20,091 bases of DNA from a virus (taxonomy: Duplodnaviria > Heunggongvirae > Uroviricota > Caudoviricetes): positions 1 through 20,091 of IMG/VR virus record IMGVR_UViG_2693429524_000017, one strand, 5' to 3'. The notes beneath the pieces are model-generated. The model made no database searches and was not told the origin of the DNA. It was given only the letters and a program-made list of their open reading frames with translations. Of the stretch, positions 5,489 to 20,091 are shown one piece after another. Within the stretch, counting starts at the first letter, position 1. Each line of letters begins with the position of its first letter. Both the position numbers and the translations under genes were made by a program.

Positions 5489-6742
5489 ATGGCTAACCAA
5501 TTAGCAAAAGACCTTGAAATCATGTTCGAAAACTACGTTGAAGGCTTTGAGGCCGCCTGCGTAGTTTCCCGTAACGCTAAAAAATTCCGTCCCGGTGATA
5601 CAGCAATGCAGCGAGCAGGTGATGTTCTGTATCGTCCGCAGCATTACCACATGAACATTGAGGAAGGCCTAGACCTCAGCGGCAAAACGCCAACAGCACT
5701 GGTTCAGCGCCTTGTTCCTTCTGTGTTCAAGGAGCCGAAAAACATTCTGTACACTCTGGATGCGCGTGAAATGCGTGACCCGGAACATAAAACTGAAGCT
5801 GGTCGCGCCGCAGGTATGCGCCTTGCTGCACAGATTGACTCTGACCTGATTTCCATGGTTACGCAGCGTGCTACTAACGTGATCACGATGGCTGACTCAA
5901 CCACAGGTTCACAGGGCCGTGATTTGTGGAACTGTGCGGCAGGTATTGATGCCACCATGACGGCGATTGGTGTACCTCAGGGTATCAACCGTCGCTCTTT
6001 CTGGAACCCCTTCAACTACAAAGACCTTGCTGGCGAGCTTAGTCACCGTGCCTATGCTCAGGGCGCAACCCTGACAGCATACGAAAAAGCGCAAATCCCT
6101 CCGGTTGCGTCCTTCGATAGCTACAAGACCGATATTTCTGGTCGTGTTCCGAAGGGTACAGCAACTTCCATTACGCTGGCAGCAGCACCTGCGCACAAGG
6201 TTGAAGCGAAAGATGCTAACGATATGCCAGTGGATAACCGACAGGGGACCATTACGGTATCTGCTGAAGGTTTGCAGGTTGGCGATGCGTTTACCATCGC
6301 AGGGGTGAATTCTGTACACCAGATCACCAAAGATACCACCGGGCAGCCGCAGGTATTCCGCGTTCTGGCAGTAAGCGGAACGACAGTAACTATCTCCCCG
6401 AAAATTCTGCCGCCTGACAACGCGGATGTCGCCAGCCGACCATATGCAAACGTTGATGCTAACGCGGCAAATGGTGCAGCAATTACCATTCTCAACAAAA
6501 ATGCCGCACCGGCTAACCTATTCTGGGCTGATGGTTCTGTTGAGCTGATGTACGGCAAACTGGCGTTCCCGACTGGTCAGGGTCCACAGGTAATGACAGC
6601 AACCACCGAGCAGGGCGCTACGCTGATCATGTCTTACGCCTTCGACCACATCAAAGGCGTAACCACTGCTCGTTTCACCACTCTGTATGGTTGCTCTGTA
6701 CTTGTTCCTGAATATACGGGCATCGTTATTGCCGGGCAGTAA
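5489..6742 (+). CDS. Major capsid (coat) protein (P22 gp5-like), 417 aa
   Basis: Position directly after scaffold, length, GGAG RBS, and a strong intrinsic terminator immediately downstream as expected for a highly expressed coat gene. Divergent from P22 gp5 itself. Confidence 0.85.
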   Translation: MANQLAKDLEIMFENYVEGFEAACVVSRNAKKFRPGDTAMQRAGDVLYRPQHYHMNIEEGLDLSGKTPTALVQRLVPSVFKEPKNILYTLDAREMRDPEHKTEAGRAAGMRLAAQIDSDLISMVTQRATNVITMADSTTGSQGRDLWNCAAGIDATMTAIGVPQGINRRSFWNPFNYKDLAGELSHRAYAQGATLTAYEKAQIPPVASFDSYKTDISGRVPKGTATSITLAAAPAHKVEAKDANDMPVDNRQGTITVSAEGLQVGDAFTIAGVNSVHQITKDTTGQPQVFRVLAVSGTTVTISPKILPPDNADVASRPYANVDANAANGAAITILNKNAAPANLFWADGSVELMYGKLAFPTGQGPQVMTATTEQGATLIMSYAFDHIKGVTTARFTTLYGCSVLVPEYTGIVIAGQ

Positions 6743-6749
6743 TTTTGGT

Positions 6750-6772
6750 GGGGCTTCGGCCCCATTTTTATT
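6750..6772 (+). terminator. Rho-independent terminator after the coat gene
   Basis: GGGGC-TTCG-GCCCC hairpin (6750-6763) followed by ATTTTTATT. Confidence 0.7.
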
Positions 6773-10846: not shown

Positions 10847-12253
10847 ATGGCTACTTGGCAAGGAACAAACGGCGGATTGTTGGCTGGTATCGGCGGCGTC
10901 AACTCAAACGCTCCGAGCGTAAATGACATCGGCAATACGCTTCAGCTTATCAGGCAGAACAATGATATTGAGCGTTCAGGCGCTAACAATGTTGGGCTGA
11001 CTGCTTTGCAAGGCCTTTCAGGTATTGCGGGGGTGTTTCAGCAGGAAAAGCAGGCTCAGCGGCAGAAAGAATTTCAGCAGGCATACGCTAATGCTTATGC
11101 GTCTGGTGATCGCGGTGCTTTGCGTCAGTTGGCTACTCAATATCCAGACCAGATTGAATCCGTTCGTAAAGGCATGGGATTCATTGATGAAGACCAGCGT
11201 AATTCTATCGGCACATTAGCGGCTGGCGCACGCCTTGCGTCATCGTCTCCAGAAGCAATGCAATCATGGCTGCAAAACAACGCCAAGGAACTGACTCGCG
11301 TCGGTGTTGACCCTAACAGCGTTGCTCAGATGTATCAGCAAAACCCTTCAGGATTTGGTGAGTTTGTTGATCACCTTGGGATGGCTGCTCTCGGTCCGAT
11401 TGATTACTTCAATGTTCAGGACAAGATGGCTGGTCGTGAAATTGACCGAGGCAGGCTGGCAGAGACAATCCGCAGCAATCAGGCTGGTGAAGCACTTCAG
11501 GCGAGAGGGCAAAACCTTTCCTATCAGTCAGCAATGACTGGGCACAATATCGCAGCACAACGCTTGGCTCTGGATCAGCAAGAGTTCGGGTTTAAGATGC
11601 AGCAAGCGCAGGAAAAGGCTCAGCAGTTGATTAGTGAAGCACCTAAGCTGTCAGTAAACATGGAAAAAGCCATCGAGACGGCTGTAAACAATGCCACAGC
11701 ATCATCAAACTCAGCCAATTCTATGAGTGCGCTTGCTCAACAGTTCAGAGCAGAAAAACCAACGACAGGTTTGTTCGGTAACGCACAGAACATGTTCGCA
11801 AAACTTACCGGAAGCGATACGACATTGCGTGATTTGCGCATTCGCCAAAATGCCCTTGTTAACAGTCAGGTTCTTAAATTCCTACCTCCCGGCCCCGCAA
11901 CGGATAAAGACGTTGAGATCGTTCGTCAGGGTGCACCAACTGACATGGATAACCCTGAGACGGTCGCAAGATGGCTTGATGCTATGGCAAACCTTGAGCG
12001 ACGAAACGCGCAGTTTAATGAGTTTAAAGCCGAGTGGATGAGCGCGAATGGCAACCCTGGACAATCGCGTAATGGCGGTCAGATATTGGGGTTGGATGTT
12101 AAAAAAGGTGAATCATTGGGGAGTGCCGTTAAGCGGTATATGTCAATGAATACTGACGCAGCGCCAGCACAAGATTCGACACCTTCAGGTGAACCACGGA
12201 ATCAGGTTGGATCATATACCTCAAAATCAGGCATTCAATTTACGGTGGAATGA
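10847..12253 (+). CDS. Ejection protein gp20-like, 468 aa
   Basis: Position and size match P22 gp20 (recalled as ~471 aa); AAGGGG RBS. Confidence 0.8.
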   Translation: MATWQGTNGGLLAGIGGVNSNAPSVNDIGNTLQLIRQNNDIERSGANNVGLTALQGLSGIAGVFQQEKQAQRQKEFQQAYANAYASGDRGALRQLATQYPDQIESVRKGMGFIDEDQRNSIGTLAAGARLASSSPEAMQSWLQNNAKELTRVGVDPNSVAQMYQQNPSGFGEFVDHLGMAALGPIDYFNVQDKMAGREIDRGRLAETIRSNQAGEALQARGQNLSYQSAMTGHNIAAQRLALDQQEFGFKMQQAQEKAQQLISEAPKLSVNMEKAIETAVNNATASSNSANSMSALAQQFRAEKPTTGLFGNAQNMFAKLTGSDTTLRDLRIRQNALVNSQVLKFLPPGPATDKDVEIVRQGAPTDMDNPETVARWLDAMANLERRNAQFNEFKAEWMSANGNPGQSRNGGQILGLDVKKGESLGSAVKRYMSMNTDAAPAQDSTPSGEPRNQVGSYTSKSGIQFTVE

Positions 12254-14130
12254 TGAAAGTAACTGCAAACGGTAAGACATTTACCTTCCCTGATGGTACG
12301 AGCACGGAAGATATTGGCACCGCCATTGATGAGTATTTTGCTGGTCAGGCTGTTCAGCAACAAACAGTTAATCAGGCCAATAATGCACCAACACGGGAAG
12401 AACCATCATTAATGCAACAAGCTGGCGATTGGCTCACTGGTGGTCAAAGTGCAGGGCAAATTGCAGAACAGGCTGGTCGTGGTCTGGTAAACATACCATT
12501 CGACGTATTACAGGGCGGCGCAAGCCTGATTAATGCAATCAGCCAGGGGCTTGGTGGCCCCAAGGTTTTGGATGATGTTTATCGTCCAGTCGATCGACCG
12601 ACAGACCCTTACGCGCAAGCTGGTGAAACAATTGGTGGGTATCTCCTGCCAATTGGCACAGCGGCAAAAGCTGCTGGAGCGCCAGCAAAGCTCGCTGGAG
12701 ATATCGGTTCCGCAGGAAACATGATTGCAGGTTCTCTTGCTGATGCTGCAAATCAGGAGGGCGATTTCGCACAAAATGCAGCTAAAAATGCCGGAGTTAA
12801 CCTTGCCGCTCAGGGGGTTCTTTCCGCAGCAGCAAAGGGAATAGGGCGTGGAATTACTGCTGTTCGTGGCGAAATATCACCAGCAGATCAGCAATTGCTC
12901 AAGCGTGCCGCTGCGGCAGATGTACCAGTTATGACATCGGATGTAGTTTCTCCAAAAACAAAACTTGGCAATCAACTGCAGGGTTACTCAGAAGGAGTCA
13001 TAGCTGGTACTGGACCAATGAGAGCCGCACAGCAGGATGCCAGAACCAAGCTTGTTAATCGCTTCACCGAAAAATACGGCGACTACGATCCATCTGTAGT
13101 CGTTGATAGTCTAAAGTCAGGCGTTGCAAGGGAAAAATCGTTAGCCAAGTCAAAACTAAACAGCCTGTCAGGAAGAATGGTTGGAAAGCCAGTTGATACA
13201 AGTGGCGCCATAAGAGCTATCGACGGAGCAGTAAACGAACTTGGGAAACTTAAAGGTGTTTCTGACACCCAGACCATTTCTGCGCTTAATGATTATAAGA
13301 ATGCCATTCAGGAGATAACAAATGGAGATGATGCCTTTGAGTTACTTGATAAGCTGAGAACTCAGTTCCGCATTGACGTAAAAGGCGATCGTACAGTTCT
13401 GCCATCAATGTCGCAAACAATGGTCGACAGGGTCTATAACTCGCTAACCAATAGCCTTAGTAAATCTATAGCGAAAGGACTTAGCCCAAAAGATGCTTCA
13501 GCATGGAGAGCGGGAAAAGCTGATTATGCAAAAATGGCAACACATGCAACTCAAACGCGCCTTAAAAACGTTCTAAACAAAGGAGATTTAACTCCCGAGG
13601 CTGTAAATACCATTGTGTATGGACAATATGGGTCAGATATAGCTCGATTGTACGGGAAACTCGATCAAAAAGGTAAAGACATGCTAAGGGCGGCATATAT
13701 CAGCAAAATAGCTGACAAGGTAGGTGACAGCCCTCAGAAAATGATGACCGAGCTTGGCAAGCTGCAAAAACAAGCAAATGGTCAGGTGTTTAAAACTGTA
13801 TTTGGTGGGAAGAACGGAAAAGAGATAGAGGGGATGTTATCTATTCTCGATGCTACCAAAAGAGCATCTGAGGCTAATGTTGTGACGAAGACTGGCATGA
13901 CACTCGCGCCTTTGGTAAGGGTTATTGGTAACCTAAAAACCGGAGGCGCGCTATTGGCTGGGGAAACAGGGATTGGCCTTATGTCGAGGGTTTATGAAAG
14001 CCCTATGACCAGGAATGCGCTCTTACGTCTGGCAAACACCAAAGCAGGAACGCCAGCCTATGAAAGAGCATTAAGTAACGCTGCAAATGCCATCAGACCG
14101 CTGCTTGCCACTGAGGCAACACAGCAGTAA
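12250..14130 (+). CDS. Ejection protein gp16-like, 626 aa
   Basis: Start overlaps the gp20 stop (ATGATG); last gene of the conserved ejection-protein block; Ala/Gly-rich. Confidence 0.8.
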   Translation: MMKVTANGKTFTFPDGTSTEDIGTAIDEYFAGQAVQQQTVNQANNAPTREEPSLMQQAGDWLTGGQSAGQIAEQAGRGLVNIPFDVLQGGASLINAISQGLGGPKVLDDVYRPVDRPTDPYAQAGETIGGYLLPIGTAAKAAGAPAKLAGDIGSAGNMIAGSLADAANQEGDFAQNAAKNAGVNLAAQGVLSAAAKGIGRGITAVRGEISPADQQLLKRAAAADVPVMTSDVVSPKTKLGNQLQGYSEGVIAGTGPMRAAQQDARTKLVNRFTEKYGDYDPSVVVDSLKSGVAREKSLAKSKLNSLSGRMVGKPVDTSGAIRAIDGAVNELGKLKGVSDTQTISALNDYKNAIQEITNGDDAFELLDKLRTQFRIDVKGDRTVLPSMSQTMVDRVYNSLTNSLSKSIAKGLSPKDASAWRAGKADYAKMATHATQTRLKNVLNKGDLTPEAVNTIVYGQYGSDIARLYGKLDQKGKDMLRAAYISKIADKVGDSPQKMMTELGKLQKQANGQVFKTVFGGKNGKEIEGMLSILDATKRASEANVVTKTGMTLAPLVRVIGNLKTGGALLAGETGIGLMSRVYESPMTRNALLRLANTKAGTPAYERALSNAANAIRPLLATEATQQ

Positions 14131-14154: not shown

Positions 14155-14544
14155 CTAACATTTTCTTTTTACTTTCCCAACAAAAGCTTTGGTTGAATCC
14201 ATATTTCCATAACCGGAAATGGTTTTTGACATTAAAACTGTTCCAGTAGGATGTATTACCCATGAGTCGATAACGCGTTGAGTTTCGCCATTTGCGCCGA
14301 TTCCTATGATGGAGTTTTTAGACAATGCTTTGTAAGCCATGCCGCCCGCATCTGTCCCAGAATATGTGATGCTGGCATCTTCACCGCTTGTCTTAATGAT
14401 GAATGTTCCACTAAAACCATCTTCTTCCGGATGGAAATTATTTCGTTCTGAATAGCTTATTCCGCGCATATCTCCAACGACCCAGCACTCTGCTGTAGCC
14501 CCAAAAGATATGAATAAGAACATAGCAGCAAGAAATTGCTTCAC
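14155..14544 (-). CDS. Exported hypothetical protein with an N-terminal signal peptide, 129 aa (accessory gene)
   Basis: GTG start with a perfect AGGAGG 5 nt upstream (reverse complement of 14550-14555). N-terminus MKQFLAAMFLFISFGATA-E is a signal peptide with an AXA-type cleavage site and no lipobox. Opposite strand to the late operon and AT-rich. Confidence 0.65.
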   Translation of the reverse strand: MKQFLAAMFLFISFGATAECWVVGDMRGISYSERNNFHPEEDGFSGTFIIKTSGEDASITYSGTDAGGMAYKALSKNSIIGIGANGETQRVIDSWVIHPTGTVLMSKTISGYGNMDSTKAFVGKVKRKC

Positions 14545-14848
14545 ACCAACCTCCTTAGTTTTGCGCAGGATACCAGATGATACTTTATTGGTGGAGTGGT
14601 GTGTGAAAACGTGTCAACGACAAACCATCCACAACTTGGACGAATGATTTAGCAAAAAGTGCTATTTTTGGTGTTTGGTGTCATAGAAACGTGAATAGCT
14701 TACTTTTCAACATTGCATGAAACTTGCAGGAAATGTGACATTACCTTATAGGTAACTTCGGTGAAAATGCAGTAAATGTGAAACGTAATGGTTTAAACAT
14801 GTCGCTAAAGTGGTTGTAAGTTAGCCTCCGAAGGATTGCTGATAGCTT

Positions 14849-14857
14849 TGTTATAGT
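14849..14857 (+). promoter_or_regulatory. Candidate extended -10 promoter (TGtTATAGT) for the 14919-15790 cassette
   Basis: TG at 14849-14850, one nt, then TATAGT at 14852-14857. No good -35 upstream, and the TTGACA at 14870-14875 has no matching -10. Hand-scanned, weak call. Confidence 0.3.
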
Positions 14858-14918
14858 ATTAAATGACATTTGACATAGTTGGATACTTAGCTGCGGCTAT
14901 CAAGATGGAGGTATGTTT

Positions 14919-15362
14919 ATGCTCACTTGTTTTGATGTCGCCGACTACTTCTTGGCGCATTGCGATGAAGAAAGTGGCGACATTATCTCTAACCTAAAAA
15001 TTCAGAAGTTGACGTATTATGCCCAAGGGTTTTCTCTGGTTCTTCTGGGTAAGCCGCTATTTAATGAGAAAATTGAAGCCTGGATGCATGGGCCAGTAGT
15101 TCCTGAATTGTATCGTAAATATAGGGACTGTGGTAACGGCGCTTTACCTGCGCCAGAAAACTTTGACGCTAAAAAATTCAGTGAAGATGAAATTGAATTG
15201 CTGGATGAGGTGTATAAAGTTTATGGTCAGTTTTCTGCCTGGAAACTGCGCAATATGACTCACGAAGAGCAGCCATGGAAAGATGCTTACATTGAGGGTG
15301 CGGTTAGCCAAGAAATCACGCTTGATTCTATGAAAGGTTTTTTCAAAACGTTAATTAACTGA
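14919..15362 (+). CDS. Panacea (DUF4065, COG3600 GepA/SocA-like) domain protein; putative antitoxin or immunity component, about 147 aa
   Basis: Translation contains NLKIQKLTYYAQGFSLVLLGKPLFNEKIEAWMHGPVVPELYRKY, which I recognise as the Panacea core pattern. GGAGG at 14907-14911 favours the ATG at 14919 over the track start at 14913. Stop is 5 nt before the next ORF. Confidence 0.6.
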   Translation: MLTCFDVADYFLAHCDEESGDIISNLKIQKLTYYAQGFSLVLLGKPLFNEKIEAWMHGPVVPELYRKYRDCGNGALPAPENFDAKKFSEDEIELLDEVYKVYGQFSAWKLRNMTHEEQPWKDAYIEGAVSQEITLDSMKGFFKTLIN

Positions 15363-15367
15363 CGTGT

Positions 15368-15790
15368 ATGTCTAGAGTTAAGGGAAGAATAAAACAGAGG
15401 GATAAAGAGAGCTCTGCTACTGTTGGCCTCTCTATCCATCACGAATCTCATGATGTAGACAAAAGTCCGCCTGTATTTTCTCTTAGATACCTACAAAAGG
15501 GGTATTGCCTAGATTGCTGCCAAAAGCATGAAAAGGCAGCATTTGCAGATAGGCTGTTCAGGTTAAGTCAGATGTCATGGGATGAGATACGAAAATCTGA
15601 TAAACACGGGCTTGGGACGGAAAAAATTGCCAGAAACGCGATAAAGGCTCCGATTCCTAAGCATGTTACTCAAGATGTGGATTTCATTGCGTTCAGATTT
15701 TGCTCTAAGGCACCTATGGTTGGTTATAAGATAGGAGCCACTTTTTATGTCTTATGGCTCGACAGGGAGTTCAAGCTATACAAGCACTAA
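15368..15790 (+). CDS. Hypothetical basic protein, 140 aa; candidate toxin/effector partner of the upstream Panacea-domain protein
   Basis: ATG 5 nt after the upstream stop with no independent Shine-Dalgarno, so probably translationally coupled. K/R/H-rich, with a C-terminal segment VDFIAFRFCSKAPMVGYKIGATFYVLWLDREFKLYKH. I cannot assign a family. Followed directly by an intrinsic terminator. Confidence 0.55.
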   Translation: MSRVKGRIKQRDKESSATVGLSIHHESHDVDKSPPVFSLRYLQKGYCLDCCQKHEKAAFADRLFRLSQMSWDEIRKSDKHGLGTEKIARNAIKAPIPKHVTQDVDFIAFRFCSKAPMVGYKIGATFYVLWLDREFKLYKH

Positions 15791-15791
15791 T

Positions 15792-15817
15792 AAAACCCAC
15801 CGTCAGGTGGGTTTTTT
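15792..15817. terminator. Intrinsic terminator, probably bidirectional, between the convergent genes 15368-15790 (+) and 15834-16037 (-)
   Basis: CCCACC-GTCA-GGTGGG hairpin flanked by AAAA upstream and TTTTTT downstream, giving a U-tract in either orientation. Confidence 0.75.
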
Positions 15818-15833
15818 GTTGGAGATAAAATGG

Positions 15834-16037
15834 TTAACCAAATCGATCCTTAAAGCGCCTATCGCTGTTGCGTCTCTCCATTTTACTGTTGCAGTACGGA
15901 CAAAGATGCTGTTTCTTTCCATCGATAGTCCATGTGAAGTACTTTTTCTTAAATCCAGCACCACAGATATCGCAACTTCTTGGTTTAAACATACTGGCTA
16001 TGAAGATAAGAACAACAAATCCTATGATCCATTCCAT
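15834..16037 (-). CDS. Small membrane-anchored protein with a CxxC...CxxC zinc-ribbon motif, 67 aa
   Basis: N-terminal hydrophobic helix WIIGFVVLIFIASMF, then CDIC...CPYC and a basic tail. AT-rich; ends at the bidirectional terminator. Confidence 0.5.
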   Translation of the reverse strand: MEWIIGFVVLIFIASMFKPRSCDICGAGFKKKYFTWTIDGKKQHLCPYCNSKMERRNSDRRFKDRFG

Positions 16038-16178
16038 ATCATGTACCTGTTTTAACTTTATTTTTTGATTTTTAGGGATTAATCAGAAACTTTATCTTGC
16101 GATTAAGCAAAGCTACTAGCTAACAAAAGAGTGCGTATACAATCAATCGTTTCACATCAACCTCAACAAGGAGAAATC

Positions 16179-16364
16179 ATGACCATAGAAGAACGCCTGA
16201 ACAACATTGAGTTGAACCAAACCCTGCTTGACCAGCGACTTTCAGATCTTGAGCTTAAAGATCTTGATGCGCAAATATCAGAAGCAGAAGCCAAGCTCTC
16301 CAGCTTAAACCACCGCAAGAAGCAAATCCGCAACAGAATTACTCAGGGACGCGGAAGCTGTTGA
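16179..16364 (+). CDS. Small coiled-coil hypothetical protein, about 61 aa
   Basis: ATG at 16179 with AAGGAG 5 nt upstream. Heptad-like leucine pattern. Its 3' end overlaps the convergent minus-strand ORF by 26 nt. Confidence 0.45.
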   Translation: MTIEERLNNIELNQTLLDQRLSDLELKDLDAQISEAEAKLSSLNHRKKQIRNRITQGRGSC

Positions 16365-16548
16365 GGTGGGATGCTAGGTCTCTATCGTTAAAATCAAGGC
16401 TGCTAATCATTTCATTGTAAATGGCGTTTTTATCTTCCATTGGCAGTCTTGAGTAAACCAGGCACAGAGCATATTTCAGGGAGTTTAGCTCCTTCTCTAG
16501 CTCTTCCTTGCTTGACGTTGTTGACTTAATAAACTGTTTTTTGTTCAT
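16339..16548 (-). CDS. Small hypothetical protein co-transcribed downstream of mnt, 69 aa
   Basis: ATG overlaps the mnt stop (ATGA on the minus strand), so probably translationally coupled to mnt. No family recognised. Confidence 0.5.
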   Translation of the reverse strand: MNKKQFIKSTTSSKEELEKELNSLKYALCLVYSRLPMEDKNAIYNEMISSLDFNDRDLASHLNSFRVPE

Positions 16549-16796
16549 TTTTCATCCTTACCATACATGGTCTTTAGCGCCTCAACATCGTGTTCAAGAT
16601 CTATCAATCGTGATGCTATAGTTGCAAGGTCTAGTGCTTGAATGTGTTTATTTTTTTCGGTCCACGCTTCAAGTGCCGCGACCATCTCAGCATTTAATGA
16701 ACGAGAATTAGCCTCAGCCAGTTCAATAAGACGTTCCTTTATCTCTACAGGAAGCCTCAGATTCACTTGAGGGTTTTTGTACTTACGATCAGACAT
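16545..16796 (-). CDS. mnt: Mnt-like ribbon-helix-helix repressor, 83 aa
   Basis: N-terminal RHH motif NLRLPVEIKERLIELAEANSRSLNAEMVAAL aligns with my recollection of P22 Mnt; same length; transcribed divergently from arc/ant as in P22 immI. Confidence 0.8.
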   Translation of the reverse strand: MSDRKYKNPQVNLRLPVEIKERLIELAEANSRSLNAEMVAALEAWTEKNKHIQALDLATIASRLIDLEHDVEALKTMYGKDEK

Positions 16797-16824: not shown

Positions 16825-16853
16825 AGGATATGTAGGTATCTATTGACTATCAA
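16825..16853 (-). promoter_or_regulatory. Pmnt-like promoter (minus strand: -35 TTGATA, 17-bp spacer, -10 TATCCT)
   Basis: The -35 is the reverse complement of 16848-16853 and the -10 of 16825-16830. An AGGA Shine-Dalgarno lies 7 nt before the mnt ATG. Overlaps Pant back-to-back. Confidence 0.5.
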
Positions 16854-16871
16854 TGCGTACCTAAATACTAT
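16843..16871 (+). promoter_or_regulatory. Pant-like promoter (-35 TTGACT, 17-bp spacer, -10 TACTAT) driving arc, ORF67 and ant
   Basis: TTGACT at 16843-16848 and TACTAT at 16866-16871; GGAGGA RBS at 16893-16898 before the arc ATG. Confidence 0.6.
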
Positions 16872-16901: not shown

Positions 16902-17042
16902 ATGAAGGTAAAAACACTGCGTATGCCAGAGAAGCTAGAAAAAATTCTTGAAGAAAAAGCAAAGGAAGAGTGTCGCTCATTCAGCGCAGAAGTAATTAAA
17001 CGGGTGATGGACAGCCTGAAGAGAGAGGGGATAACTGTATGA
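16902..17042 (+). CDS. arc: Arc-like ribbon-helix-helix repressor, 46 aa (absent from the ORF track because it is under 60 aa)
   Basis: ATG at 16902 with GGAGGA upstream. Translation MKVKTLRMPEKLEKILEEKAKEECRSFSAEVIKRVMDSLKREGITV aligns with P22 Arc as I recall it, notably RSFSAEVIKRVMDSLKREG against RSVNSEIYQRVMESFKKEG. Confidence 0.8.
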   Translation: MKVKTLRMPEKLEKILEEKAKEECRSFSAEVIKRVMDSLKREGITV

Positions 17043-17242
17043 GTAAAGAATGTTGTTTCTGCGGCATTAGCGAATCAGACGCTGATCAAACATACATTTA
17101 CTCTAAAGAAACAGGTCGGATGCTGTGTAGTGACTGCGTGTTGGACATCATAAGATACAAGCATCTTGGATGTTCTGCCAGCATTAGCAATATAGGTGAA
17201 GTATATGAAGGGAAAGATATAACTGATAGAGCAGAAAGTTGA
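17039..17242 (+). CDS. Small Cys-rich (zinc-ribbon-like) hypothetical protein, 67 aa, translationally coupled to arc
   Basis: ATG overlaps the arc TGA (ATGA). Cys cluster CCFCG...CSDC...C. Sits between arc and ant, where I recall P22 having only an intercistronic region. Confidence 0.55.
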   Translation: MSKECCFCGISESDADQTYIYSKETGRMLCSDCVLDIIRYKHLGCSASISNIGEVYEGKDITDRAES

Positions 17243-17340
17243 AGCCCCAACTGCTGGAACAGTCAGGGCTTCGGTATCGTAAAACCACACATAGGAATTA
17301 ACGACATGAAAAGTATAGCAACAGCAGTATCTACTATCAA
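17236..17340 (-). ncRNA. sar: Candidate sar-like antisense RNA locus: minus-strand promoter inside the ant 5' end, transcript running antisense across the ant RBS to a hairpin at 17241-17272
   Basis: Minus-strand -35 TTGATA (reverse complement of 17335-17340), 17-bp spacer, -10 TATACT (reverse complement of 17312-17317), placing the start near the ant ATG. An extended hairpin GAAGCCC..ACTG-CTGGAA-CAGT..GGGCTTC lies at 17241-17272. The predicted length of about 65-70 nt is similar to the P22 sar RNA as I recall it. The span includes the promoter. Confidence 0.45.
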
Positions 17341-18172
17341 TGTACCATTCCACGGCGCAGAGCTTTATGTTGTCAATCACAACGGCGAACCGTATACCCC
17401 AATGAAACCTATCGTTGAAGGCATGGGTATGGATTGGGCTTCACAGTTTACGAAAATGAAGCAGCGGTTTAAAACCTCCATTGTGAAAATCACAATGCAG
17501 CTTCCTGGTGATGAACAACGCCGTGAGATTATTTGTTTGGCACTTCGCAAACTTGCAGGTTGGCTGCAAACCATTAGCCCTAACAAAGTCCGCCCTGAAA
17601 TCCGCGACAAGGTAATCCAGTATCAGGAAGAGTGTGACGATGTGCTCTACGAATACTGGACTAAAGGTCATGTAGTTAACCCACGCAAAGCTAAAAAGGC
17701 GTTGCCGGGTAAAATTACCACTGAACAGCAGGAAGCCATTAAACAACTCGTCATGAGTCGCGGTCAGTCTCTGCCAAAAGAAAAACAGGCGAAGGCGATG
17801 ATCACCATGTGGTCGTCACTGAAATCTCATTTTGGGTGTTCATACAAAGAAATCAGCGATGAGCAGTTTACCGAAGCTCTGTCACTTGCAGCTCGTATTC
17901 CACTTGAAGGCGAGTTCATTGGCAAGTCGAAACATAATGAGATGAGTTGTTTTGATTGGAGGATGAATGTTCATAACCTGAACTCGGCGTGCATTCATCT
18001 TGATGCCATGTACAGAATATGGAGAGACGAAATGGAACCCGCTTTGCGATTGCTTGGCTCTCCGGTTGCGACCAGATTTTGCGGAAGAATTGCAGATTGC
18101 TATTCCGTAACTGCAAGCGTTAAGAAAAGTCTGGAGAATGCCGCAGGGCTGAAAGGCTTACAACCATTTTAA
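17306..18172 (+). CDS. ant: Antirepressor Ant (P22 Ant-like), 288 aa
   Basis: N-terminal segment YTPMKPIVEGMGMDWASQFTKMKQRF...ICLALRKLAGWL...YQEECDDVLYEYWTKG is typical of phage antirepressor N-domains; located after arc as in P22 immI. Confidence 0.8.
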   Translation: MKSIATAVSTINVPFHGAELYVVNHNGEPYTPMKPIVEGMGMDWASQFTKMKQRFKTSIVKITMQLPGDEQRREIICLALRKLAGWLQTISPNKVRPEIRDKVIQYQEECDDVLYEYWTKGHVVNPRKAKKALPGKITTEQQEAIKQLVMSRGQSLPKEKQAKAMITMWSSLKSHFGCSYKEISDEQFTEALSLAARIPLEGEFIGKSKHNEMSCFDWRMNVHNLNSACIHLDAMYRIWRDEMEPALRLLGSPVATRFCGRIADCYSVTASVKKSLENAAGLKGLQPF

Positions 18173-18212
18173 CTACCTGCACGAAAAGTGCAGGTCAATC
18201 ATCAACGCAACG

Positions 18213-18236
18213 ACCCAGCTTCGGCTGGGTTTTTTT
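18213..18236 (+). terminator. Rho-independent terminator after ant
   Basis: ACCCAGC-TTCG-GCTGGGT hairpin followed by a T-run (18231-18236). Confidence 0.75.
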
Positions 18237-18294: not shown

Positions 18295-20091
18295 ATGACA
18301 GACATTACAGCCAATGTTGTAGTGAGCATGCCTTCGCAACTCTTCACTATGGCGCGTTCTTTTAAAGCGGTTGCCAATGGCAAAATTTATATTGGTAAAA
18401 TTGACACTGACCCTGTAAATCCTGAAAACCAGATTCAGGTTTATGTGGAGAACGAAGATGGTTCTCACGTCCCTGTTTCGCAACCAATCACCATTAACGC
18501 TGCTGGTTATCCGGTATATAACGGACAGATTGCCAAGTTCGTAACTGTACAGAATCACTCCATGGCTGTTTATGATGCATATGGTGCACAACAATTCTAT
18601 TATCCTGATCTACTTAAATATTCTCCAGACCAGTTAAGGGCTGAGCTTTCTGGCCCTGATGGCGCATCTCTGGTTGGTTATGGAGGCACAACCGTAAAGA
18701 TTGAGCTGGAGATCTTGAAAGCTACACATGATTCATTAATTGATAAAACAGGATTTAACGCTATTGGCCGCTTTCTCAATCTTTCAGAGCTTCGCTCCTG
18801 TGTTCCAGAGGAGGCAGGGCAGATTGTATACGTAGCATCAGCAGCTAGCACTACACATGCTGAAAACCACCTTGGTGGCGGCTTTTTCGAGTCTGTTGAT
18901 AACATTCAGGCGTGGGCTGATGATGGTGGAATTGTAATCAAGCCAGAAACTGGAACGATGGTATGGAGACGAATTAATTTTACCACTTACGACATGCAAT
19001 TTTGGGGGGTGAAACCTGACGGAGTCACAGATAACGCAACAGCTATAACTCTTGCAACTAACTTTGCCCGCTCAAACAAATGCATTCTAGAGGCTCCTGC
19101 TGGAAACATAAATACATCAAAAACAATCCCAATTTATGACAATATGGGAATTAGAGGACAGGGAAAGGCTGAAGCGACAGTTTTTTATAAAACAACAAAT
19201 GACAAAATAGATCTCACAAAAAATGGAGAAGTAATTCTTCAGGTGGATGCATTATGTGCTTTTATACCAAAACAATGGGATCTAACAGATAACTCAATGA
19301 GTTCATTTTGTGTTAACGGTAGAGTTGAAAACTGCATGTTTAGAAGGCTTGGCTTAACACAAGAAAATGTAGATTCTTATAGAAATTATTACGGACTGTT
19401 TTTAGGAAAATCAGCAGCACCAGTTATCAGACAGTCAATTTTTGAATGTGCTTATATCGGATGCTTCTCTTATGCGCCGTTCTCTGGCGTAATGGAAATG
19501 GTCGGTTTCCCACAATATCCAGGGAAAGGATATGCTGGAGTTTTATTTGAAGATTTTAGGGATGGTCAAATAAAAGTAATAGGCACTTCTATGGATATGC
19601 GCCTTGTTCAGGTTAACGGTTACCAGTTGTCATTTAGAATGTCAGGAATGCAATATACCACCATGACCAATTGTACTGCTGAAAACTGCACGCCAATGGA
19701 TGGGGAGTCAATTTGCTATGCATTTGATTTTGTAAATCCGTATTGCATTGTCATGAATACTTGTGCAACAGAATTTGTTAAGGGTGGGCAACTTCGTGTT
19801 AGCGTTCAGGGAAACCCATCATTCAGACCATCTATTATTGTCAATGGCTTTCTGCCAATTGATCAACAAAGCCCGGTAGTGCAAACACCTATAATAGATA
19901 TTGATAATGGTGGCGTAGTTGAAATGAGTGTCATATTAAATGGTGGAGATTGGGCTATAAATCCATCTGCTACAAATTTAGCCGTACCAAGAGCAAGCGG
20001 AAATGGGTTGAAAGCAAGGTTAATAGGTGTAAACGGGTCGCCTGTTTCGATCTGGAGCGTGTCTCCTGGCGCAGATGTGAAGGAGTTCTAA
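18295..20091 (+). CDS. Tailspike protein (P22 gp9-family N-terminal head-binding domain fused to a divergent receptor-binding domain), 598 aa
   Basis: N-terminus [50 protein letters not shown] matches the conserved P22/Sf6/HK620 particle-binding domain. The remainder is a different, AT-richer domain. GGAG RBS; the TAA is the last codon of the window. Confidence 0.85.

What the first reader, a model, noticed from the sequence alone, without database searches (positions are those of the whole stretch)
15792..15817. Bidirectional terminator that late transcripts must read through to reach the tailspike gene
Three intrinsic terminators (6750-6772, 15792-15817, 18213-18236) and three antisense-oriented genes lie between the late genes and the tailspike gene. 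Tailspike expression from the late promoter would require antiterminated read-through, which would also produce antisense RNA against the minus-strand accessory genes and mnt during lytic growth.
Basis: inference. Interest (0 to 1): 0.2.

Follow-up and report, generated by a model that had tools for sequence, protein, structure and literature searches.

The report
Two-way terminator inside P22-like late operon
This is a real, strong transcription stop signal that works in both directions, sitting where two sets of prophage accessory genes meet head-on inside the late gene block of a P22-like phage; the need for late transcripts to run through it to reach the tailspike gene is ordinary, already published P22 biology.

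Summary
The hairpin at 15792-15817 (AAAA-CCCACC-GTCA-GGTGGG-TTTTTT) is real and far beyond chance. It is the only bidirectional one. It lies 1 nt after the stop of a + strand Panacea-antitoxin/140-aa cassette and 16 nt after the stop of a minus-strand 67-aa gene.

The surroundings are the "ant moron" (immI region) of P22-like phages: mnt, arc, sar RNA and ant, plus a terminator identical to P22's annotated ant terminator, then the tailspike gene.

The same 25-mer occurs in 82 viral contigs, with gene 16 upstream and mnt/ant/tailspike downstream wherever those markers were found. It has about 10 upstream and 12 downstream contexts. In several it encodes the last codons (KKPT-stop) of mnt, so it is the ancestral gene-16/mnt convergence terminator and a mosaic joint.

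Read-through by Q-modified late RNA polymerase is inferred from P22 literature, not shown here; the late promoter and Q gene lie outside the window.

Verdict: correct, ordinary, already known.

The parts
15792..15817 (.). T2: bidirectional intrinsic terminator hairpin (AAAA-CCCACC-GTCA-GGTGGG-TTTTTT). This is the finding.
   Evidence: Sequence; folding; terminator scores of +35.7 and -15.0 against 0.03 signals per shuffled window. The same sequence is annotated as a rho-independent terminator in phage Emek. It is 100% conserved in 82 IMG/VR contigs.
6747..6772 (+). T1: + strand-only terminator-like hairpin just after the coat protein gene (5489-6742).
   Evidence: d = 28.7 on +, negative on -. 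A comparable intra-operon terminator at the end of the procapsid module is described for phage L (PMC8022706).
18212..18236 (+). T3: + strand-only terminator between ant and the tailspike gene, identical to the annotated P22 ant terminator.
   Evidence: d = 36.5 on +, -30.5 on -. The P22 annotation is and the identical sequence is printed.
12250..14130 (+). Gene 16-like DNA transfer/ejection protein, the last virion gene before the island.
   Evidence: ORF; homologous records annotate it as an injection or DNA transfer protein.
14155..14544 (-). 129-aa minus-strand gene (Sf6 gp38-like, phrog_2651) with a signal-peptide-like N terminus. Its leader (14545-14581) matches the leader of P22 sieA.
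14913..15362 (+). PanA: Panacea/SocA-domain antitoxin.
   Evidence: Pfam PF13274, E = 2.2e-24. RefSeq names it a 'Panacea domain-containing protein'.
15368..15790 (+). 140-aa partner of PanA (phrog_8366), inferred to be the toxin or effector. Its stop codon lies 1 nt before T2.
   Evidence: Weak matches to the PADLOC NsnC C-terminal part (1.8e-7) and to NCBIfam MAG6450 below its cut-off. The structure model was poor.
15834..16037 (-). 67-aa minus-strand gene with an N-terminal hydrophobic helix and a CxxC...CxxC zinc ribbon. Its stop codon lies 16 nt from T2.
   Evidence: Full-length homologues at 66-69% identity occur in Klebsiella and Edwardsiella phages. In Edno5 the homologue sits directly after mnt in the same orientation.
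16179..16364 (+). orf61 (phrog_7586), a + strand coiled-coil ORF. In Emek-type loci it starts 13 nt after T2.
16339..16548 (-). 69-aa gene (phrog_16466) whose start overlaps the end of mnt by 4 nt.
16545..16796 (-). mnt (Arc/Mnt ribbon-helix-helix repressor).
   Evidence: Pfam Arc, E = 3e-10; annotated as such in relatives.
16825..16871 (.). Overlapping divergent Pant (+, 16843-16871) and Pmnt (-, 16853-16825) promoter-like sites.
   Evidence: The layout matches the annotated P22 region.
16902..17042 (+). arc.
   Evidence: Pfam Arc, E = 2.9e-9.
17237..17304 (-). sar antisense RNA.
   Evidence: Rfam RF00262, 80.9 bits, E = 7e-16. A Psar-like promoter lies at 17340-17312.
17306..18172 (+). ant (antirepressor).
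   Evidence: Pfam P22_AR_N, E = 4.9e-45; PHROG anti-repressor Ant.
18295..20091 (+). Tailspike gene (P22 gene 9 homologue with a head-binding N terminus).
   Evidence: annotated as tailspike in relatives.

Best explanation
T2 is a Rho-independent terminator that works in both directions. It sits where two prophage-expressed accessory transcription units converge inside the late operon of a P22-like (Lederbergvirus) phage.

Rightward, it ends the PanA/140-aa cassette. Leftward, it ends the mnt operon transcript (Pmnt, mnt, orf69, 67-aa gene). In the lysogen it would keep each unit from transcribing antisense into the other. In particular it would stop rightward transcription from running on toward Pant and ant.

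It descends from the gene-16/mnt convergence terminator of this phage group, and it serves as a joint at which cargo cassettes have been exchanged.

During lytic growth, RNA polymerase that started at the single late promoter and was modified by the Q/gp23-type antiterminator ignores T1, T2 and T3. It continues through the island, antisense to the four minus-strand genes, into the tailspike gene.

Shown here: the hairpin anatomy, its statistical significance, its position, its conservation and the mosaic contexts. Inferred: termination itself, antitermination, and the biological role of the insulation.
For: - Anatomy and scores. T2 is the only site in 20 kb that scores as a terminator on both strands.
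- Position: 1 nt after the + strand stop codon and 16 nt after the minus-strand stop codon.
- No other minus-strand terminator-like signal lies between Pmnt and T2.
- The immI parts are all present: mnt, arc and ant, sar, Pant/Pmnt/Psar, and T3 identical to P22 t_ant.
- The exact 25-mer occurs in 82 viral contigs. gp16/gp20 hits lie only upstream on + (49 and 43 contigs). Mnt (-) and Ant, Arc and tailspike (+) lie downstream, apart from 3 P22-Mnt hits on the + strand. 78 of 82 contigs have at least one marker.
- The simplest arrangement is gene 16, 59 nt, the hairpin, then mnt ending inside it.
- Five divergent Mnt proteins end KKPT-stop inside the hairpin, and P22 Mnt ends KKTT-stop in a degenerate copy.
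- Island G+C is 38-42% against about 50% in the virion genes.
- Evidence that + strand transcription crosses the hairpin: in Emek-type loci the Shine-Dalgarno site and ATG of orf61 start 13 nt after it.
- Literature: the 'ant moron' concept, PLate polymerase transcribing through it into gene 9, and a single late promoter with intra-operon terminators (PMC2629481, PMC8022706). Morons carry their own promoter and terminator (PMC3594210).
- The close relative E212 has the same cassette and hairpin, and a Q gene upstream of the lysis and virion genes.
- The same 25-mer recurs at intergenic, gene-end-like positions in 12 unrelated bacterial genomes. This supports its being an efficient generic terminator.
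Against: - No expression data of any kind were available.
- The late promoter and the Q/gp23 gene are not in the window.
- The minus-strand U tract (UUUUAUUAG) is weaker than the + strand one, so leftward termination may be partial.
- Only a weak extended -10 candidate was found upstream of PanA, and no consensus promoter for the 67-aa gene. The independent expression of these units is therefore inferred.
- There is no covariation support. The hairpin is essentially invariant, and the few variants are G.U-compatible or disruptive.
- The terminator score formula was recalled from memory.
Confidence: 0.75

Rival explanations
1. T2 (with T3) is a partial attenuator rather than a signal that the late polymerase fully ignores. 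A fraction of late transcripts stops here, and this sets the lower dose of tailspike relative to the head proteins.
For: [quoted passage not shown] The phage L paper lists partial termination as a possible role of intra-operon terminators (PMC8022706). Three strong + strand terminators lie in series.
Against: From established knowledge, Q-modified polymerase in lambda-type systems is highly resistant to intrinsic terminators. Nothing in the sequence distinguishes partial from complete read-through.
Confidence: 0.25
2. T2 works only rightward, as the terminator of the PanA cassette. Leftward mnt-operon transcripts end elsewhere, for example by Rho, or run into the PanA cassette.
For: The minus-strand score is much lower (15.0 against 35.7). 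In P22 the homologous hairpin scores as a terminator on the + strand only (23 against -44), because a G.U pair on + becomes an A.C mismatch on -.
Against: In this window the stem is perfect on both strands. The minus-strand reading is still the only minus-strand signal with d >= 10 in 20 kb, against 0.03 expected. The convergent 67-aa gene ends 16 nt away.
Confidence: 0.15
3. The tailspike gene is transcribed mainly from Pant or an unrecognised local promoter, so read-through of T2 does not matter for tailspike expression.
For: Pant lies 1.4 kb upstream on the same strand. Promoter scans by consensus can miss real promoters.
Against: No promoter-like site lies between ant and the tailspike gene. 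A strong terminator identical to P22 t_ant separates them. P22 literature places gene 9 in the late operon, reached by PLate polymerase (PMC2629481, PMC8022706).
Confidence: 0.08
4. The hairpin is chiefly a recombination scar or linker, a relic of the mnt 3' coding end carried along by cassette exchange, with no regulatory role in this genome.
For: The identical 25-mer joins about 10 upstream and 12 downstream contexts. It encodes KKPT-stop of mnt in many loci but is non-coding here.
Against: It has the complete anatomy of a terminator and lies precisely between two convergent stop codons. The same sequence occurs at intergenic positions typical of terminators in unrelated bacteria. Serving as a linker and as a terminator are not mutually exclusive.
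Confidence: 0.08

Closest known systems
Phage P22 immI region or 'ant moron' within the late operon (sieA, hkcC, orf59a, mnt, arc, sar, ant, t_ant, gene 9)
   Same: It occupies the same position between gene 16 and the tailspike gene. mnt, arc, sar and ant are present with Pant/Pmnt/Psar-like sites, and the ant terminator is identical. Convergent + and - accessory genes meet at a hairpin, and P22 has a degenerate copy of T2 at the 3' end of mnt.
   Different: The cargo differs: a PanA/140-aa cassette, a 129-aa Sf6 gp38-like gene, a 67-aa zinc-ribbon gene, orf61 and orf69 replace sieA, hkcC and orf59a. Here T2 is detached from mnt by inserted genes and is a perfect hairpin on both strands. The P22 copy is terminator-like only on the + strand.
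Salmonella phage vB_SemP_Emek, annotated rho-independent terminator at 15643-15666
   Same: The hairpin sequence is identical and follows the homologous PanA-partner gene.
   Different: In Emek the hairpin is followed after 13 nt by + strand orf61. The window has about 350 bp inserted there, carrying the minus-strand 67-aa gene. The partner proteins are only 57% identical.
Morons of lambdoid phages (Juhala et al. 2000; reviewed in PMC3594210)
   Same: These are accessory genes inserted into a late operon, with lower G+C and their own terminator, presumably expressed from the prophage.
   Different: A convincing promoter of its own was not found for the PanA cassette. The island is a composite of several units rather than a single gene.
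Intra-operon terminators read through by Q/gp23-modified RNA polymerase (lambda tR', P22 and phage L late operons)
   Same: Strong intrinsic terminators lie within a block of late genes that, in relatives, is driven by one promoter with a Q gene upstream (PMC8022706).
   Different: The Q gene and its qut site are outside the window, so this could not be examined here.

Membership tests
Rho-independent (intrinsic) terminator | G+C-rich stem-loop immediately followed by a U-rich tract | tested here: met
   6-bp stem with 5 G-C pairs (10 bp with the A/U extension), a 4-nt loop and six T. dG is -10.9 for the core and -18.6 for the context; d = 35.7.
Rho-independent (intrinsic) terminator | Located at the 3' end of a transcription unit | tested here: met
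   It starts 1 nt after the double TAA stop of the 140-aa gene.
Rho-independent (intrinsic) terminator | Causes transcript release in vitro or in vivo | not testable with these tools
   No expression data were available. Term-seq or a reporter assay is needed.
Bidirectional terminator | A tract 5' and T tract 3' of a perfect palindromic stem, so that both strands give a hairpin followed by U | tested here: met
   AAAA...TTTTTT. The minus-strand reading gives UUUUAUUAG, dG -15.4 and d = 15.0, and is the only minus-strand signal in 20 kb. It is weaker than the + strand reading.
Bidirectional terminator | Flanked by convergent genes | tested here: met
   A + strand gene ends at 15790 and a minus-strand gene ends at 15834. 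The minus-strand gene is supported by full-length homologues.
P22-type immI region / ant moron | mnt, arc, ant and the sar antisense RNA lie between gene 16 and the tailspike gene | tested here: met
   Pfam Arc (twice) and P22_AR_N; Rfam sar at 80.9 bits; gene order.
P22-type immI region / ant moron | A terminator between ant and the tailspike gene (t_ant) | tested here: met
   The sequence is identical to the annotated P22 terminator.
Moron | Present in some related genomes and absent from others at the same site | tested here: met
   L013-type loci have gene 16, the hairpin and mnt with no cargo. EC28 has a P63C-domain gene in place of PanA. There are 10 upstream contexts in all.
Moron | Own promoter and own terminator | tested here: inconclusive
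   The terminator is present. Only a weak extended -10 candidate (TGTTATAGT, about 14849-14857) lies upstream of PanA.
Moron | Base composition differs from the surrounding genes | tested here: met
   38-42% G+C in the island against about 50% in genes 20 and 16.
Q-dependent late operon | A Q/gp23 antiterminator gene and a late promoter with qut upstream of the lysis and virion genes in the same genome | not testable with these tools
   The window starts just before the small terminase gene. A Q gene was seen only in the relative E212.
PanAT toxin-antitoxin pair | Antitoxin with a Panacea (DUF4065) domain | tested here: met
   PF13274, E = 2.2e-24.
PanAT toxin-antitoxin pair | The adjacent gene is a toxin neutralised by PanA | tested here: inconclusive
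   There is no Pfam or PDB match. Weak matches to PADLOC NsnC and NCBIfam MAG6450. The AlphaFold model was poor (pLDDT 52.6) and Foldseek found nothing. Toxicity cannot be tested with these tools.

The most novel reading that the evidence does not exclude
The 25-nt hairpin may be more than a generic terminator. It could be a selectively maintained, portable joint of the ant moron. On this reading its exact sequence is kept because it does three jobs at once: it terminates both convergent units, it encodes the C terminus and stop codon of mnt, and it provides the short homology at which accessory and defence cassettes (PanA pairs, P63C-domain genes, lipoproteins, ClpP-like genes) are swapped between P22-like phages. 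That would make it a dedicated cargo-exchange site.
Probability: 0.2. Interest if true: 0.4.

Novelty: already known. Interest (0 to 1): 0.12.

Why it matters
This matters little beyond careful annotation. It confirms that this phage follows the P22 plan: accessory and immunity genes are embedded in the late operon, fenced by terminators, and crossed by antiterminated late transcription to reach the tailspike gene. The modest added value is threefold. First, the hairpin is the conserved gene-16/mnt convergence terminator of E. coli and Salmonella P22-like phages. Second, it marks the point where cargo such as a Panacea antitoxin pair is exchanged. Third, it helps to correct gene calls: PGAP places a + strand ORF across it in one genome.

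Tried and rejected
- The generic promoter/terminator scan did not list T2, because its stem extension consumed the T run. I replaced it with my own scored scan.
- A narrower variant scan (analysed) found only six homologous variants. Four are G.U-compatible, two are disruptive and none is compensatory, so there is no covariation evidence.
- The species-genome scan found the same 25-mer only in unrelated bacteria without P22 markers. This argues against any phage-specific identity of the sequence.
- Function of the 140-aa PanA partner: no Pfam or PDB sequence match, a single-sequence AlphaFold model with pLDDT 52.6, and no Foldseek PDB hit with E below 1. It remains unresolved.
- The primary paper by Adams, Brown and Casjens (1985; PMC255003) is not held. 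Its content is cited only through PMC2629481.
- A search for RNA-seq papers on P22 late transcription across immI gave nothing usable.
- The idea that the + strand ORF 15747-16055, annotated by PGAP in UMNK88, is a real gene was rejected. It starts inside the 140-aa gene and runs through the terminator, while the opposite-strand 67-aa ORF has conserved homologues.

Full report
**What the window is.** The ORF map, family scans and similarity searches show the late region of a P22-like phage or prophage (genus Lederbergvirus) of E. coli and its relatives.
- The virion genes run in this order: small and large terminase, portal, scaffold, coat (5489-6742), head completion and needle genes, then ejection proteins up to a gene 16 homologue (12250-14130).
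- A 4-kb low-G+C island follows (38-42% against about 50%).
- The tailspike gene follows the island (18295-20091).
- No record in the phage or E. coli collections covers the whole window. The island in particular is mosaic.

**The observation.**
- Positions 15792-15817 read AAAA-CCCACC-GTCA-GGTGGG-TTTTTT.
- The 41-nt context folds at -18.6 kcal/mol on the + strand and -15.4 on the minus strand, with z-scores of -4.4 and -3.6.
- I used a terminator score of the d'Aubenton-Carafa type: hairpin energy per nucleotide plus a weighted T-tract term. I recalled the formula from memory, so its absolute values are approximate.
- With that score, the site gives 35.7 on + and 15.0 on -.
- A scan of all 20 kb on both strands returns only four signals with a score of 10 or more. 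They are 6749-6764 (+), 15796-15811 (+), 18214-18229 (+) and the minus-strand reading of 15796-15811. Forty dinucleotide shuffles gave 0.03 signals per window.
- The generic scan missed it for a technical reason: its stem extension consumed the T run.

**Anatomy around it.** The hairpin lies between convergent genes.

On the + strand:
- A Panacea/SocA-domain antitoxin gene lies at 14913-15362 (Pfam E = 2e-24).
- A 140-aa partner gene follows at 15368-15790. Its double stop codon ends 1 nt before the A tract.

On the minus strand:
- A 67-aa gene (15834-16037) ends 16 nt from the hairpin.
- This ORF has a hydrophobic N terminus and a CxxC...CxxC motif.
- It has full-length homologues at 66-69% identity in Klebsiella and Edwardsiella phages.
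- In Edwardsiella phage Edno5 the homologue sits directly downstream of mnt in the same orientation. It is followed there by a different hairpin facing the late genes.

Further right lie:
- + strand orf61 (16179-16364);
- minus-strand orf69 (16339-16548), which overlaps the end of mnt (16545-16796);
- overlapping Pant and Pmnt-like promoters (16825-16871);
- arc, a 67-aa ORF, the sar antisense RNA (Rfam, 80.9 bits) and ant (17306-18172);
- a terminator at 18212-18236 that is base-for-base the annotated P22 ant terminator.

The island thus has four minus-strand protein genes plus sar, not three, and six + strand genes. No minus-strand terminator-like signal other than T2 lies downstream of Pmnt. 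The leftward mnt transcript therefore plausibly runs through orf69 and the 67-aa gene and ends at T2.

**Comparative evidence.**
- The same hairpin follows the PanA partner gene in phages Emek, E212, EC.P3 and phiv205-1 and in many E. coli prophages. The Emek record annotates it as a rho-independent terminator.
- Homology to E212 and EC.P3 stops exactly at 15817, the last T of the hairpin.
- Other prophages share only 15790 onward. In strain EC28 the upstream gene is a P63C-domain gene.
- The exact 25-mer occurs in 82 IMG/VR contigs, with about 10 different upstream and 12 different downstream contexts in many combinations.
- In these contigs, gp16 and gp20 homologues are found only upstream on the + strand (49 and 43 contigs). 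Ant, Arc and tailspike homologues are found only downstream on the + strand (36-44 contigs each). Mnt homologues are downstream on the minus strand in up to 66 contigs, with three hits on the + strand. 78 of the 82 contigs carry at least one marker.
- The simplest arrangement is gene 16, 59 nt, then the hairpin, with mnt ending inside it.
- Five divergent Mnt-family proteins all end KKPT, with their TGA stop in the hairpin loop.
- P22 Mnt ends KKTT-stop in a degenerate copy, CCGCC-GTCA-GGTGG. That copy scores as a terminator only on the + strand, because a G.U pair on + becomes an A.C mismatch on -. This fits the P22 mnt operon continuing into orf59a.
- T2 is therefore the ancestral convergence terminator between the virion genes and the mnt operon, and a mosaic joint at which cargo has been inserted or exchanged. 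Relative to Emek, the window has about 350 bp inserted right after the T run, and this insert carries the 67-aa gene.
- Variants are rare and give no compensatory changes, so there is no covariation support.
- The same 25-mer also occurs as an ordinary intergenic hairpin in 12 unrelated bacterial genomes without P22 markers. The sequence is thus a generic, evidently effective terminator shape rather than a phage-specific signal.

**Does late transcription have to cross it?** This cannot be shown from the window, because the late promoter and the antiterminator gene lie upstream of it. The indirect evidence is consistent:
- No sigma-70-like site lies between ant and the tailspike gene.
- A strong terminator identical to P22 t_ant sits there.
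- In Emek-type loci (11 contigs) a conserved + strand ORF with an AAGGAG Shine-Dalgarno site starts 13 nt after the hairpin. There is no room for a promoter, so + strand transcription must pass the hairpin at least some of the time.
- The close relative E212, which carries the same cassette and hairpin, has the standard layout of Q gene, lysis genes, virion genes and tailspike gene.

The model is already in the literature:
[quoted passage not shown] - In P22 it is thought to influence tailspike level through the frequency with which PLate-initiated polymerase transcribes through it. This is stated in PMC2629481, citing Adams, Brown and Casjens 1985, a paper I could not open.
- The P22 late operon has a single promoter. 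Intra-operon terminators, including one at the end of the procapsid module that corresponds to T1 here, are noted for phage L (PMC8022706).
- Resistance of Q-modified polymerase to intrinsic terminators is established knowledge from lambda-type systems.
- Antisense transcription of mnt and the other minus-strand genes during late growth follows logically from this model.

**Most likely mechanism.**
- In the lysogen, T2 ends the rightward PanA cassette and the leftward mnt operon. It keeps either from transcribing antisense into the other.
- In particular it keeps rightward transcription from running on toward ant.
- After induction, antiterminated late polymerase passes T1, T2 and T3 and reaches the tailspike gene.
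- Whether passage is complete or partial, acting as a dosage attenuator, is open.
- Confidence in the composite explanation is about 0.75. The anatomy, significance, position and conservation are shown. Termination, antitermination and insulation are inferred.

**Side work that led nowhere.**
- The 140-aa PanA partner has only weak matches: the PADLOC NsnC C-terminal part (1.8e-7) and NCBIfam MAG6450 below its cut-off.
- It has no PDB sequence match, a poor single-sequence model (pLDDT 52.6) and no structural hit.
- Its role as a toxin or effector is inferred only from its pairing with a Panacea antitoxin (PMC8832971 describes such pairs).

**Verdict.**
- The identical hairpin is already annotated as a terminator in a public phage record.
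- The finding is ordinary and of low interest.
- The only mildly new point is that this exact hairpin is the conserved joint of the ant moron across many mosaic contexts.

Noticed in passing
window 15792-15817; loci L010-L091: The exact 25-mer joins about 10 different upstream and 12 different downstream contexts in 82 viral contigs. In five divergent Mnt families it encodes the last four codons (KKPT) and the TGA stop, which falls in the loop. In this window it is non-coding.
   Followed up: yes
window 18212-18236; L092 4513-4536: The terminator between ant and the tailspike gene is identical in sequence to the annotated P22 ant terminator.
   Followed up: yes
L092 3010-3035 (P22, 3' end of mnt): P22 carries a degenerate copy of the hairpin that scores as a terminator on the + strand only (23 against -44). 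A G.U pair on + becomes an A.C mismatch on -. This fits the P22 mnt operon reading on into orf59a.
   Followed up: partly
window 14913-15790: A Panacea (PanA/SocA) antitoxin gene is paired with a 140-aa gene of unknown function. The partner matches phrog_8366 and weakly matches the PADLOC NsnC C-terminal part. This is a likely toxin-antitoxin or defence cassette carried in the ant moron. Two variants of the partner, only 57% identical, share the identical hairpin.
   Followed up: partly
window 15747-16055 (+) versus 15834-16037 (-); L008 4703-5011: RefSeq (PGAP) annotates a 102-aa + strand ORF that runs through the terminator in strain UMNK88. The opposite-strand 67-aa ORF, with a membrane helix and a zinc ribbon, has 66-69% identical full-length homologues in Klebsiella and Edwardsiella phages and is the more credible gene.
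   Followed up: yes
window 16179-16364 (+) and 16339-16548 (-): orf61 (+) and orf69 (-) converge and overlap by 26 nt with no terminator between them. No usable promoter was predicted for orf61, so it probably depends on read-through of T2.
   Followed up: partly
window 14545-14581: A 37-bp block upstream of the minus-strand 129-aa gene matches the leader of P22 sieA with one mismatch. It is 100% identical in many E. coli prophages that share nothing else nearby, so it is another short mosaic boundary.
   Followed up: partly
window 17039-17242: A 67-aa ORF (phrog_7150, with two CxxC motifs) sits between arc and ant, where P22 has none. The sar RNA match (17237-17304) begins at its 3' end.
   Followed up: no
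L275-L286: The identical 25-mer occurs as an intergenic hairpin in 12 unrelated species genomes (Pseudomonas, Halomonas, Pantoea and others) with no P22-like genes nearby. These appear to be convergent generic terminators.
   Followed up: yes
window 19000-19600: G+C drops to 36-40% in the receptor-binding part of the tailspike gene, while the N-terminal head-binding part resembles many relatives. This is the usual mosaic tailspike pattern.
   Followed up: no
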